A program made the translations under genes and the position numbers. A stretch of 64,000 nt of DNA from Calditrichaceae bacterium (GTDB lineage Bacteria; Calditrichota; Calditrichia; Calditrichales; JBFXGD01). The stretch is taken from the NCBI GenBank assembly GCA_050173015.1, contig JBFXLE010000006.1:147665-211664 (forward strand), given 5' to 3'. Every line of letters begins with the position of its first letter. The stretch's first letter is position 1. Shown piece by piece: positions 62,235-64,000 of the stretch. The notes under the pieces were generated by a model. That model saw only the letters and a list, made by a program, of their open reading frames with translations. It was not told the DNA's origin and did not search any database.

Positions 62235-63275
62235 ATGAAATATAAGATGAAAATAAACGGGACCATGGTTCTCGTGTTCTTTCTTCTCCTTGCTATGCTG
62301 CCCCTTTACGCTGGCTCTGATGCGCGAGTAGGTACAGCAGCAGGCGTCCAGGTCCTTGTACCGGTAGGTGCTCGTGATCTGGCCATGGGCGGTGCAAACA
62401 TTGTCAATACTCAGGGTGTTGACGCCATGTATTGGAATCCCGCGGGTTTGGCGAATTTGGATGGTAAGGCGCAAGGTGCGTTCTCGAACATGACCATATT
62501 CAGTGATATAGGTGTGAACTATCTTGCTCTCGGTGTGAATATGGGCTCGTTGGGAAATTTGGGATTTGATATCAAAAGTTTTGATTTTGGTGATATCCCG
62601 GAGACAACGGTTCTGGATATGGATGGGGCTTCAGGAAAAACATACTCACCCACCTATTCAACTGTTGGGCTTACGTATGCCAATAAATTGACCGAAACAA
62701 TCAGGGTTGGTTTTACCGGTAAAATGATATACGAGTCAATTCCCCGGGCTGAGGCCACCTCTTTTGCCTTCGATATTGGTATTCAGTACATGAACCTGGC
62801 CGGATTAGATGGCGTTTCATTTGCTGTTGTTGCGAAGAACATTGGCCAAAATATGAGTTATGAAGGTTCCGGCTTCTTGTATGCGGTGCAGGATCCGGTA
62901 ACAGACAGAACTGATTATGTTAGCCGCGAGACTTCATCAGATCAATTACCCGCCAGTATAGAATTTGGCGTGGCATATACCTACAAACTGATGGAAAGGA
63001 ACACGCTTCTGATTTCAGGTGACTTTGCGAACAATAATATCGATAACGACGAATTAAAATTCGGTGTCGAGTACAGTTACAATAACTTTGTCGCATTGCG
63101 CGGTGGTTATGTCAATAAGCTTAGCGTTGATTCTGAAGATGAAGATTTTGATTTCAGCTTCGGGGCGGGTATAAATTACAAGCTCGGCAATACAATGCTG
63201 ACACTTGACTATGCCTTCCGTAATTCAGAGTATTTCGATGCCAATAACATGTTCACACTCAAAGTTGGGTTTTAA
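62235..63275 (+). CDS. PorV/PorQ-family outer-membrane beta-barrel
   Basis: VGTAAG..VLVPVGARDLAMGGA, YWNPAGLA, C-terminal FTLKVGF. Confidence 0.88.
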   Translation: MKYKMKINGTMVLVFFLLLAMLPLYAGSDARVGTAAGVQVLVPVGARDLAMGGANIVNTQGVDAMYWNPAGLANLDGKAQGAFSNMTIFSDIGVNYLALGVNMGSLGNLGFDIKSFDFGDIPETTVLDMDGASGKTYSPTYSTVGLTYANKLTETIRVGFTGKMIYESIPRAEATSFAFDIGIQYMNLAGLDGVSFAVVAKNIGQNMSYEGSGFLYAVQDPVTDRTDYVSRETSSDQLPASIEFGVAYTYKLMERNTLLISGDFANNNIDNDELKFGVEYSYNNFVALRGGYVNKLSVDSEDEDFDFSFGAGINYKLGNTMLTLDYAFRNSEYFDANNMFTLKVGF

Positions 63276-63300
63276 TAACTGACTTTTGGTTGAAGTATCA

Positions 63301-63337
63301 AAAAAGGCCGGTGGTTTTTCCACCGGCCTTTTGTTTT
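63301..63337 (+). terminator. Intrinsic (possibly bidirectional) terminator
   Basis: AAAAGGCCGGTGG-TTTTT-CCACCGGCCTTTT then GTTTT. Confidence 0.88.
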
Positions 63338-63352
63338 ATATAGTCAAACGTG

Positions 63353-63443
63353 GAAGTAAGAAGTAGGAAGTGGGAAGTAAGAAGTAGGAAGTAGGAAGTG
63401 GGAAGTAAGAAGCAGGAAGTGGGAAGTAAGAAGTGAGAATTGA
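63353..63443. repeat. Tandem heptamer repeat GAAG(T/C)RR x12 plus one degenerate unit
   Basis: Units GAAGTAA, GAAGTAG, GAAGTGG etc. at exact 7-bp spacing from 63353. Confidence 0.92.
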
Positions 63444-63523
63444 AGAGCGTTAAGAGGAAAGAGTTATGAGTTAAGTGTAGGGCGAGCCAAGCGAAAATTG
63501 GATCTCTAATCCCGGAGGGATGT

Positions 63524-64000
63524 CTATTGAGAAAAAAGTCAATAGGGTGTTCTTCTCCATTATGAATTTTAATTCATTTTTTTTTACTTTGACTTTTGGT
63601 CGAACGGTCTGCCAATGCCGATAATCTTCTTTTTTGTTTTGTGTATTTATTATTTACCTGTTTTTTTTAAATTTTATACTATGCGTCTATTTGAGCTCTG
63701 CCATTTTCCATGAAAAGGCGGCTATGGCAAATTACGAGTTTTATTATAGATGGGGACGGGTTAACCGAAATATGGGCACTTTATCTTTGTGCATCATCCA
63801 GAATGAACTCTCATCCCCAAACTCTTAAATACACTTAGAGCACTCCTGGTCTTTATGGGCTTAACAGCGACCACACCACATTTCTATGCAGCTGTTATTT
63901 CATCTTTTCTCCAACGATACGGTTCATATTTCCGGCCATTTTTGAGCATACTTAAACTTACCTTTGCCAGGTAACGGCTTACCATCTGATGCGCCTGTTT
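63524..64000 (-). mobile_element. Probable IS110-family element, 3' part (extends beyond the window)
   Basis: Transposase-like C-terminus, ~360 bp structured non-coding end, outward TTGACT -35 hexamer near the presumed end. The boundary is inferred. Confidence 0.55.
63884..64000 (-). CDS. C-terminal fragment of a probable IS110-family transposase
   Basis: Manual translation KQAHQMVSRYLAKVSLSMLKNGRKYEPYRWRKDEITAA*, resembling the IS110 tail pattern A..AVARKL....Y.MLK.G..Y.P. Confidence 0.6.
   Translation of the reverse strand, partial: KQAHQMVSRYLAKVSLSMLKNGRKYEPYRWRKDEITAA

What the first reader, a model, noticed from the sequence alone, without database searches (positions are those of the whole stretch)
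63524..64000. Probable IS110 end with a structured non-coding region: bridge/seekRNA candidate
Seen: the minus-strand ORF tail resembles IS110 transposases. The ~360 bp after its stop hold several stems (+ coordinates): TGGTC/GACCA 63847-63873, TGGGGACG/CATCCCCA 63751-63819 (fully paired only on the minus strand, via G-U) enclosing a GCAC/GTGC hairpin, and TGCCAT/ATGGCA 63699-63729. An outward TTGACT (63542-63537) lies just inside the presumed end. GTCTATTTGAG at 63685-63695 nearly copies the junction GTCTATTGAG at 63522-63531. Known: IS110/IS1111 elements encode guide RNAs in their non-coding ends, downstream of the gene in the IS1111 group, and form a promoter on circularisation. Inference: this region encodes such an RNA, and the copied motif may be a guide segment.
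Basis: partly seen in the sequence, partly recalled or inferred. Interest (0 to 1): 0.75.

Follow-up and report, generated by a model that had tools for sequence, protein, structure and literature searches.

The report
IS1111-type insertion sequence guide RNA
The window ends inside a small jumping gene of the IS110/IS1111 kind, and the 360 bases after its transposase gene encode the folded guide RNA that tells the enzyme where to insert; this is a clear new example of a mechanism described in 2024.

Summary
Window 63522-64000 is the right end of a roughly 1.53-kb IS1111-type element, cut by the contig end. A complete sibling copy on contig C45 encodes a transposase with both IS110-family Pfam domains. 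A covariance model of minus-strand 63679-63828 finds the same RNA just 3' of the transposase gene in 77 of 85 sources. In that alignment 95% of cells pair and 23 of 27 pairs show compensatory changes. One loop holds two strands that co-vary with the DNA flanking each element (0 of 5000 permutations reach the observed match for either). The following strands co-vary with the element's own two ends (48 of 51; 7 of 7). In this genome 4 of 9 repeat copies with the matching CCTGGATG sequence are occupied, against 0 of 46 near-miss copies. The window copy sits in a weaker-matching repeat type. Transcription was not shown. This is a new member of a known kind, in a deep-branching clade that no Rfam model hit at E<=1.

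The parts
63884..64000 (-). Last 38 codons plus stop of the IS110-family transposase gene, cut by the contig end
   Evidence: The tail is identical to the C-terminus of the complete 374/358-aa ORF at L002:1866-2990, which carries PF01548 and PF02371.
63679..63828 (-). Bridge/seekRNA core (match to covariance model R1)
   Evidence: 173.3 bits, E 2.7e-35. The same RNA was found in 77 of 85 sources, always on the transposase strand. 95.3% of cells pair and 23 of 27 pairs show compensatory change.
63736..63824 (-). Stem-loop 1 (target-binding): P1 GAGUU/AACUC, P2 UGGGGAUG(A)G(A)GUU / AACCCGUCCCCA, internal loop, P3 hairpin
   Evidence: For example, pair U23-A69 is U-A in 38 rows and C-G in 33 rows of alignment A4.
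63794..63802 (-). 5' loop strand UCUGGAU-GA: complementary to the top strand of the target right of the crossover (ATCCAGG) plus target core TC
   Evidence: Co-varies with the flank after the right end in relatives: longest exact run 6.04 for own flank against 3.10 for other flanks, 0 of 5000 permutations. 4 of 9 CCTGGATG repeats are occupied against 0 of 46 others.
63776..63792 (-). P3 hairpin GCAC-loop-GUGC between the two target guides
   Evidence: All 4 pairs show compensatory changes (helix 3).
63764..63775 (-). 3' loop strand CCAUAUU-UC-GGU: same sense as left target flank, then core, then the first 3 nt of the left end (handshake-like)
   Evidence: Own 5.02 against cross 2.95, 0 of 5000 permutations. 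The core equals the left-junction core in 50 of 54 loci. GGU/GAU tracks left end GGT/GAT, 7 of 7 for GAT.
63724..63733 (-). Donor strand AAUUUGCCAU: complementary (one G-T wobble, one A-C mismatch) to core plus left end AC-GGTAAATT
   Evidence: AAUUU(G/A)CCGU or AAUUUGCCAU occurs in 45 of 77 rows. The AUC variant occurs in all 7 loci whose left end is GATAAAAT.
63694..63723 (-). Stem-loop 2: AGCC / G(A)GCU stem capped by a variable hairpin
   Evidence: helix 4: G-C in 64 rows and A-U in 6 at one pair. The cap is absent or short in distant relatives.
63685..63693 (-).
   Evidence: The RNA hexamer equals the right-end hexamer in 48 of 51 loci (ATAGAC 32, ATAGGC 10, ATACAC 5, ATATAC 1).
63524..63678 (-). 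Distal right end: A-rich spacer, conserved block CCGUUCGACCAAAAGUCA (63590-63607), covarying hairpin AUGAA..UUCAU (63562-63577), then the terminal repeat
   Evidence: Alignment A5 of 12 elements. Its function was not worked out.
63526..63540 (.). Right arm of the subterminal inverted repeat (ATTGAGAAAAAAGTC)
   Evidence: pair I1. The partner at the left end is GACCTTTTTCTCAAT (C45). Both arms are conserved in relatives.
63537..63542 (-). Outward -35-like TTGACT; with 13 nt + 2-nt core + GG it would stand 17 nt from TAAATT of the left end in a circle
   Evidence: Sequence. The TTGAC(T/A)...TAGAC block is 21 nt in all 50 relatives where this right-end motif was found, out of 75 loci. The circle itself was not observed.
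63522..63523 (.). Core copy at the right junction (GT on +, AC on the element strand; the donor core)
   Evidence: AC in 52 of 52 right junctions. Unoccupied sites diverge from occupied ones here.
63500..63521 (.). Target: hairpin module (ATCCC-GGA-GGGAT) of a genome-wide modular repeat, 'type 2'
   Evidence: Unoccupied paralogues read GGGAT|GA|AATTATTGTAGAAAA (4 copies). The start of contig C13 carries the matching other junction TTTACC|GA|AATTATTGTAGAAAATAG.

Best explanation
Window 63522-64000 is the right (3') end of a roughly 1.53-kb IS1111-type member of the IS110 family. The genome holds at least five copies, which break the assembly. The 360-nt non-coding end encodes, on the transposase strand, a bridge/seekRNA of about 150 nt. 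Stem-loop 1 is the target-binding loop. Its 5' strand (UCUGGAU-GA) pairs with the top strand of the target just right of the crossover. Its 3' strand (CCAUAUU-UC-GGU) has the sense of the left flank plus core, so it pairs with the bottom strand, and it runs 3 nt into the left end. The next strands (AAUUUGCCAU, and CAAAUAGAC after a short stem) recognise the element's left and right ends in the same way. Inferred steps follow. The element excises as a circle. The joined ends form TTGACT-17-TAAATT, which drives the transposase gene and probably the RNA behind it. The DEDD/Ser transposase, loaded with the RNA, pairs donor and target and exchanges strands at an invariant C. Each junction keeps its own first core base: the target base at the left junction and donor A at the right. 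The natural target here is a small hairpin module (…GATCCCTCCTGGAT|GA|C…) of a lineage-specific intergenic repeat. The window copy sits in a second, weaker-matching module type.
For: The transposase is IS110-family: PF02371 46.8 bits and PF01548 34.4 bits, both above their cut-offs. A profile of 37 relatives hits the IS621 transposase 8wt6 at E 8.5e-6, with the invariant S-G aligned to ESG of IS621. Ends are fixed by 5 right-end and 5 left-end junctions and by unoccupied sites; contigs from other metagenomes leave the element at the same base. There is a 15-bp subterminal inverted repeat. The non-coding stretch is 360 nt on the 3' side and about 95 nt on the 5' side. RNAalifold on an unfitted MAFFT alignment finds P2 and P3, with 8 compensatory pairs. 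The covariance model hits 77 of 85 sources, all on the transposase strand. 95.3% of cells pair, 23 of 27 pairs are compensatory, 0 of 500 shuffles reach the observed values, and the score is 0.41 against 0.05-0.08 for slid controls. Twenty U-G pairs at one position make the structure strand-specific. Right-flank guide: own 6.04 against cross 3.10, 0 of 5000 (45 distinct of 51 loci). Left-flank guide: own 5.02 against cross 2.95, 0 of 5000 (54 distinct of 56). Donor strands: 48 of 51 for the right end and 7 of 7 for the GAT left-end variant. Occupancy is 4 of 9 CCTGGATG sites against 0 of 46 CC(A/G)GGATG sites (hypergeometric 3.7e-4, my arithmetic). The order of the two guides (complement of the top strand 5' of complement of the bottom strand) is the one reported for IS1111 seekRNAs (PMC11187229, section 9 read).
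Against: No transcription evidence was obtained. The one RNA run that holds a near-identical part of the element is laid as contigs; its single 269-nt contig covers only part of the transposase gene. No convincing promoter or terminator for the RNA itself was found: 6 promoter-like sites against 4.1±2.3 in shuffles. Rfam has no match at E<=1. The NCBIfam IS110 model scores 133.7, under its cut-off of 140. A single-sequence PDB search found nothing. The pair counts were made on a model-fitted alignment, which leans towards the structure. The left-flank match is modest, often 4-6 nt including the core. In the window copy only 4 of 7 right-flank positions pair. The window itself holds only the last 38 codons of the gene. 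That C13 is its other end is inferred from matching repeat flanks, not from an assembled join. Placement in the IS1111 clade was not tested by phylogeny, and the GL-P----S(T)G motif has W/H in place of P.
Confidence: 0.9

Rival explanations
1. The conserved non-coding end acts only as DNA (transposase-binding sites, promoter parts, single-strand DNA hairpins), and no guide RNA is made.
For: No transcript was observed. No RNA-specific promoter or terminator was found. The distal 100 nt do look like protein-binding DNA, with an inverted repeat and a third AAAAGTC-like block.
Against: Compensatory changes occur in 23 of 27 pairs. Frequent G-U pairs would be A-C on the other strand. All 77 hits are on one strand. 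The loop strands track unrelated flanking DNA in about 50 elements, which a protein-binding site cannot do. Relatives of this family have been shown experimentally to need such an RNA (PMC11187229 sections 7, 9, 10; PMC11208160 passages).
Confidence: 0.04
2. Only stem-loop 1 is the functional seekRNA (target seeker). The following AAUUUGCC...CAAAUAGAC part is not a donor-binding module but a conserved 3' tail, a processing site or DNA-level end sequence that resembles the ends by common descent.
For: The IS1111 seekRNAs that sufficed in assays were short, 82-96 nt (PMC11187229 sections 9, 10). The ends vary little, so donor covariation rests on few independent changes: four right-end hexamer classes and one left-end variant. 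No outer stem closing a donor loop was found.
Against: Each variant class changes in the RNA and in the end together (48 of 51; 7 of 7). The same left-end change also appears in the GGU-to-GAU position of stem-loop 1. [quoted passage not shown]
Confidence: 0.08
3. The window copy is a stranded off-target insertion: the RNA gene is intact, but this copy cannot excise efficiently because its right flank (ATCCCTC) matches the guide at only 4 of 7 positions.
For: The four other mapped right junctions lie in CCTCCTGGATG repeats. Only this one lies in the GGAGGGATG type. Its left-flank guide differs from the sibling's (AUAUU against AUGUG) and gives 5 contiguous matches to its own left junction. ISEc11 needs target-derived flanks on both sides for circle formation (PMC11187229 section 7).
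Against: This concerns activity, not identity, and is compatible with the main explanation. The transposase half of this copy is not assembled, so its state is unknown.
Confidence: 0.4

Closest known systems
IS1111-group seekRNA elements (ISEc11, ISPa11, ISKpn4, ISPst6; Siddiquee et al. 2024, PMC11187229)
   Same: Long non-coding region downstream of the transposase gene. Subterminal inverted repeats. No target duplication beyond the shared base(s). The RNA carries two short target matches, with the complement of the top strand lying 5' of the complement of the bottom strand. Outward -35 at the right end. Targets are repeated intergenic sequences.
   Different: The transposase is very distant: the annotated plasmid IS110-family genes listed are 22-26% identical. 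The GL-P----SG motif reads GLV(W/H)xEKxSG. The RNA, transposition and circle are untested here.
IS621 bridge RNA (Durrant et al. 2024, PMC11208160; Hiraizumi et al. 2024, PMC11208158)
   Same: Two modules, each with one strand pairing the top and one the bottom strand of the target or donor around a 2-nt core. Extra 'handshake' bases match the partner DNA. DEDD plus Ser recombinase. Junction promoter in the circle.
   Different: The RNA lies in the right end, not the left. The order of the strands is reversed. The donor strands flank a short stem rather than sitting in a simple internal loop. Core is NC with only C invariant, and donor (AC) and target (TC/CC/GC) cores usually differ, whereas IS621 has CT in both.
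REP/hairpin-targeting IS110-family elements (ISPpu9, ISPpu10, ISPa11; PMC12288879 search listing only; bioRxiv 10.64898/2026.03.19.712850 abstract)
   Same: Inserts at a fixed position beside a small hairpin in a multi-copy intergenic repeat.
   Different: The repeat family and the host lineage differ. Whether the hairpin itself contributes to recognition was not tested here.

Membership tests
IS110 family (DEDD transposase IS) | N-terminal DEDD_Tnp_IS110 (PF01548) and C-terminal Transposase_20 (PF02371) domains | tested here: met
   on the complete sibling copy (95% identical DNA over the shared 483 nt). The window itself holds only the last 38 codons.
IS110 family (DEDD transposase IS) | Conserved catalytic Ser-Gly in the C-terminal domain and conserved acidic residues | tested here: met
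   S271-G272 are invariant in 37 relatives, as are D27, E74/E75, D97, D111, D114. SG aligns to ESG of IS621. Assigning the acidic residues to the DEDD tetrad is inference.
IS110 family (DEDD transposase IS) | NCBIfam NF033542 curated cut-off | tested here: not met
   133.7 bits against a cut-off of 140, full-length match 1-342 of 343. This is a divergent member, just under the naming threshold.
IS1111 group | Subterminal inverted repeats of 7-17 bp | tested here: met
   ATTGAGAAAAA(A/G)GTC, 15 bp, 14 of 15 matching, starting 2 nt (right end) and 5 nt (left end) inside the core.
IS1111 group | Longer non-coding region downstream of the transposase gene | tested here: met
   About 360 nt on the 3' side against about 95 nt on the 5' side.
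IS1111 group | Transposase groups with IS1111 in a phylogeny; GL-P----S(T)G motif | tested here: inconclusive
   The motif reads GLV(W/H)xEKxSG, without P. No ISfinder reference sequences were available for a tree.
Bridge RNA / seekRNA | Conserved structured RNA in the non-coding end | tested here: met
Bridge RNA / seekRNA | Two guide segments matching opposite strands of the target on either side of the insertion point, changing with the target | tested here: met
   permutation 0 of 5000 each; site occupancy.
Bridge RNA / seekRNA | Segments matching the element's own ends (donor) | tested here: met
   (48 of 51; 7 of 7), resting on few independent variant classes.
Bridge RNA / seekRNA | The RNA is transcribed, binds the transposase and is required for circle formation and insertion | not testable with these tools
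   The only RNA run is laid as contigs, with one contig lying in the transposase gene.
Bridge RNA / seekRNA | Promoter assembled at the circle junction | tested here: inconclusive
   The geometry fits (TTGACT, 17 nt, TAAATT) and is constant in the 50 relatives where the TTGAC...TAGAC block was found. No circle junction was seen in the laid contigs.

The most novel reading that the evidence does not exclude
In this deep-branching clade the first core position is not shared between donor and target. The right junction keeps donor A in 52 of 52 elements. The left junction keeps the target's own base, the one written in both target-guide strands, in 50 of 54 elements (TC 26, CC 17, AC 7, GC 4). 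The four exceptions all carry donor AC. This would mean that both strands are exchanged around a single invariant C, with no 2-nt heteroduplex as expected from the IS621 CT core. It would also mean the RNA reads 'core position 1' separately for donor and target. A 3-nt handshake lies on the opposite side of the loop from that of IS621. In addition, the window copy, with a variant left guide and lying in a different repeat module, may be a natural snapshot of retargeting.
Probability: 0.35. Interest if true: 0.55.

Novelty: new member of a known kind. Interest (0 to 1): 0.4.

Why it matters
RNA-guided IS110/IS1111 recombinases are being developed as programmable DNA insertion tools. Experiments so far have centred on a few proteobacterial elements. 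This clade has 999 relatives at E<=1e-20 in metagenome protein sets. Its guide code is unusually legible: 7 nt plus core on each side, donor strands, and a handshake. Its listed matches among annotated plasmid copies are only 22-26% identical. No Rfam family matched the RNA at E<=1. It therefore gives a ready covariance model and testable rules for core choice and strand order in the less-studied IS1111 branch. For the genome itself, it explains several contig breaks. It also shows that the lineage's modular intergenic repeats serve as landing pads for a mobile element.

Tried and rejected
1. A scan of genome contigs with the single protein gave 57 pattern hits, none confirmed.

2. Rfam at E<=1 on the complete copy gave nothing.

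3. A PDB search with the single protein gave nothing. The profile search did work.

4. Sequencing runs: no run holds more than 0.24 of the sampled words, and all are served as contigs. On laying, RNA run X20 gave one 269-nt contig inside the transposase gene and nothing over the RNA region. No joint showed a circle junction. This says nothing about expression either way.

5. A first fixed-register scoring of guide against flank mis-registered distant relatives and mis-called one left end (L020). It was replaced by a register-free longest-run measure. Two intermediate left-end regexes dropped the near group and were corrected.

6. The first 29-sequence alignment had wrong coordinates for C45 and an off-target stretch for L040 and was discarded.

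7. I looked for an outer stem closing a donor loop and found no conserved one. Relatives carry a second AAACUC after stem-loop 2 that could pair with GAGUUU. It is degenerate in this element.

8. The 11-mer TGACTTTTGGT shared between 63280 and 63590 also occurs at unrelated sites, so it is chance.

9. tblastn against plasmids gave only unnamed 'IS110 family transposase' hits. All 288 were below 60% identity, and the 30 listed were 22-26%, so no subgroup could be assigned from annotation.

Supplementary figures of PMC11187229 and PMC11208160 (seekRNA folds, family trees) could not be seen. They may already include this clade.

Full report
**Observation.** The minus-strand ORF tail covers 63884-64000: 38 codons, open at the window end. 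The window is contig C6:147665-211664 of a 54-contig genome, and C6 is 211,664 bases long, so the gene is cut by the end of the contig and not by biology. A single-sequence fold of the 364-nt region is only mildly better than shuffles (-77.4 kcal/mol, z -2.16; 1 of 100 shuffles as good). The stems alone therefore prove little.

**The element and its ends.** Contig C45 carries a complete copy that is 95% identical over the shared 483 nt.
- Its minus-strand ORF is 374 aa, or 358 aa from the start used by relatives.
- It has PF02371 (46.8 bits, cut-off 21.3) and PF01548 (34.4 bits, cut-off 29).
- NCBIfam's IS110 model matches full length but scores 133.7 against a cut-off of 140.

Five right-end junctions (C6, C45, C54, C27, C53) and five left-end junctions (C45, C9, C24, C37, C13) lie mostly at contig ends. 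The genome therefore holds at least five copies, and they break the assembly.

On the + strand the junctions read ...GGAT-GT-CTATTGAG... and ...TTTACC-GA-flank. Unoccupied sites are abundant and read ...AGCAGAAGATCCYTCCNGGAT-GA-C... ('type 1'). The window copy sits in a second module type...GGATCTYTAATCCCGNAGGGAT-G(T/A)-AATTATTGTAGAAAA ('type 2').

The start of C13 reads TTTACC-GA-AATTATTGTAGAAAATAG..., which matches unoccupied type-2 copies with GA (4 in the genome). It is probably the other end of the window copy. That is an inference; the join is not assembled.

Contigs from other metagenomes leave the element at the same base (loose ends at L002:1505). The element is about 1,533 bp. It has a 15-bp subterminal inverted repeat (ATTGAGAAAAAAGTC / GACCTTTTTCTCAAT), about 95 nt before the gene and about 360 nt after it.

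**Relatives.**
- The protein has 999 relatives at E<=1e-20 among 3,393 candidates. The best are 95, 74 and 67% identical, followed by many at 45-65%.
- It is rare in related genomes. 3 of 41 genomes searched, counting the window's own, have it at E<=1e-20.
- The RNA model finds 4 of 86 genomes of the phylum at E<=1e-5. Repeats are often unassembled, so this is 'not found' and not 'absent'.
- A metagenome scan with a 37-protein alignment confirmed 522 of 568 candidate stretches. The best 80 loci were kept.
- All 288 plasmid records with a tblastn match are below 60% identity. The 30 listed are 22-26%.
- A profile of the 37 proteins reaches the IS621 transposase (8wt6, E 8.5e-6) over the C-terminal domain. 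The invariant S-G is aligned to the ESG of IS621.

**The RNA.** Downstream of the stop codon, elements of only 56-65% protein identity share a strongly conserved core of about 150 nt.
- A covariance model with my structure (27 pairs) hits 77 of 85 sources (263 kb, E<=0.001). Every hit is on the transposase strand, just 3' of the gene. The window hit is 63679-63828 (minus strand, 173 bits).
- On the resulting alignment (71 distinct rows), 95.3% of cells pair, 23 of 27 pairs have compensatory changes (326 cells), and the covariation score is 0.41.
- Column shuffles give 0.157, and 0 of 500 reach the observed value. Slid controls give 0.05-0.08. This alignment is fitted to the model, which favours the structure.
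- The clearest pairs have invariant neighbours: U-A in 38 rows and C-G in 33 at one pair, G-C in 35 and A-U in 34 at another. One pair is U-G in 20 rows, which fits RNA on this strand only.

TGCCAT/ATGGCA competes with a pairing that is conserved, AGCC with G(A)GCU plus a variable cap. That pairing switches to AACC/GAGUU in some relatives. Its 5' half lies in a single-stranded guide.

**Target guides.** The internal loop of stem-loop 1 has a 5' strand CAU-UCUGGAU-GA-U and a 3' strand C-CAUAUU-UC-GGUU.

Across relatives the 7-nt block of the 5' strand is the reverse complement of the DNA that follows the right end.

| Element | RNA block | Flank after the right end |
|---|---|---|
| L021 | UCGGGA | ATCCCGA |
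| L022 | UCGCAA | ATTGCGA |
| L031 | GUCCUAU | ATAGGAC |
| L032 | GUGCCAC | GTGGCAC |

- A register-free measure was used: the longest exact run between the loop strand and 10 nt of flank. It gives 6.04 for own flanks against 3.10 for other elements' flanks, with 0 of 5000 permutations as high. The test used 51 loci with a right end and at least 12 nt of flank out of 77 rows, 45 of them distinct.
- The 3' strand has the sense of the left flank plus core. Own is 5.02 against cross 2.95, 0 of 5000. The test used 56 loci with a left end, 54 distinct.
- Weak cases exist. L034, L026, L044, L060 and L071 score 3 for the right flank, and the left-flank match is often only 4-5.
- This order, complement of the top strand first and then complement of the bottom strand, is the one reported for IS1111 seekRNAs and is the reverse of IS621 (PMC11187229 abstract and section 9; PMC11208158 passages on LTG and RTG).

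**Site choice in this genome.** 55 type-1 repeats match AGATCC[CT]T[CG]CNGGATG. Of the 9 with CCTGGATG (right flank ATCCAGG, which pairs UCUGGAU), 4 are occupied. Of the 46 with CCAGGATG or CCGGGATG, none is occupied (hypergeometric 3.7e-4 by my arithmetic).

The window copy's right flank is ATCCCTC, so only 4 of 7 positions pair. Its left guide reads AUAUU-UC where the C45 copy has AUGUG-UC. This gives 5 contiguous matches to its own left junction (ATTTC). This copy is therefore an off-consensus insertion, possibly helped by a guide variant.

**Cores.**
- The right junction is AC in 52 of 52 elements.
- The left-junction dinucleotide equals the two bases before GGUU in the RNA in 50 of 54 elements (TC 26, CC 17, AC 7, GC 4).
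- The four exceptions carry AC where the RNA has GC, which a G-T wobble would tolerate.
- So the target core stays at the left and the donor core at the right, and only the C is common.
- By analogy with IS621, where top strands are cut 3' of the core (PMC11208158, passages), this fits top-strand exchange after the C. The absence of mixed junctions suggests no 2-nt heteroduplex. This is inference.

**Donor strands.**
- AAUUU(G/A)CC(G/A)U, before the AGCC stem, is the complement of AC-GGTAAATT (core plus left end).
- The RNA hexamer equals the right-end hexamer in 48 of 51 loci, across four classes (ATAGAC 32, ATAGGC 10, ATACAC 5, ATATAC 1). The three misses differ at the last base. The near group was missed by that regex, but it has ATAGAC in both the RNA and the right end.
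- All 7 loci whose left end starts GATAAAAT have AUC instead of ACC/GCC in the 5' donor strand. They also have GAU instead of GGU after the core in stem-loop 1. This is a three-way co-variation and a handshake-like feature.
- These are few independent changes.

**Promoter.** On the element strand the right end reads TTGACT + 13 nt + core. With GG of the left end this places TAAATT 17 nt away. The TTGAC(T/A)...TAGAC block was found in 50 of 75 loci and is 21 nt in all 50. No circle was seen, and no separate promoter or terminator for the RNA stands out. I infer co-transcription with the gene followed by processing.

**What is known, and verdict.** Durrant et al. predicted bridge RNAs in the right ends of 93% of IS1111 elements and noted multi-loop donor binding (PMC11208160, passage read). 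Siddiquee et al. showed seekRNAs experimentally for four IS1111 members (PMC11187229, abstract and sections 6, 7, 9, 10 read).

The present element fits that kind in every feature I could test, apart from a slightly sub-threshold NCBIfam score and a variant C-terminal motif. It is a new member of a known kind in a divergent clade. Rfam gave no match at E<=1 on the complete copy. I ran no search for prior publication of this clade, and supplements were closed.

The element's targets are hairpin modules of that repeat family.

Noticed in passing
window 63340-63460 and genome-wide: Purine-rich short-period tract (GGAAGTA/GGAAGTG/AGAAGTA units) followed by gagcgttaagag...gagttatgagttaag. It is part of a modular repeat family with 120 matches to window 63300-64000 across many contigs, often at contig ends. 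The insertion sequence uses its hairpin modules as targets.
   Followed up: partly
window 63306-63336: Terminator-like hairpin GGCCGGTGG-TTTTT-CCACCGGCC followed by a T run. It lies 30 nt after the stop of the 346-aa outer-membrane-like ORF at 62235-63275.
   Followed up: no
window 63562-63607 (distal right end): A conserved block CCGUUCGACCAAAAGUCA, and a hairpin AUGAA..UUCAU that switches to AUGAU..AUCAU in L024 and L025. The block resembles the AAAAAGTC part of the terminal repeats. It may be a third transposase-binding site or a 3' extension of the RNA.
   Followed up: partly
L020-L029, just 3' of the RNA core: Relatives carry a second AAACUC after stem-loop 2 (…GCAUAGUUAAAAACUC…). It could pair with the 5' GAGUUU and enclose both modules in a multi-loop. 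In this element it is degenerate (AAAAUUU / AAAGUUU).
   Followed up: partly
L041, L043, L048, L064 left junctions: These are the only four elements whose left-junction core (AC) differs from the core written in their RNA (GC). All four carry the donor's AC. The cause could be wobble tolerance or occasional transfer of the donor core.
   Followed up: no
G035:C282 and G035:C131 (L012, L014-L016): Related transposase genes of 49-59% identity interrupted by 1-3 stop codons. At least one still has the RNA (L012, 136.5 bits). These are decaying copies in a related genome.
   Followed up: no
L043:1801-1975: A copy of the RNA with an internal duplication of about 25 nt in the hairpin cap and 3' loop strand of stem-loop 1.
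   Followed up: no
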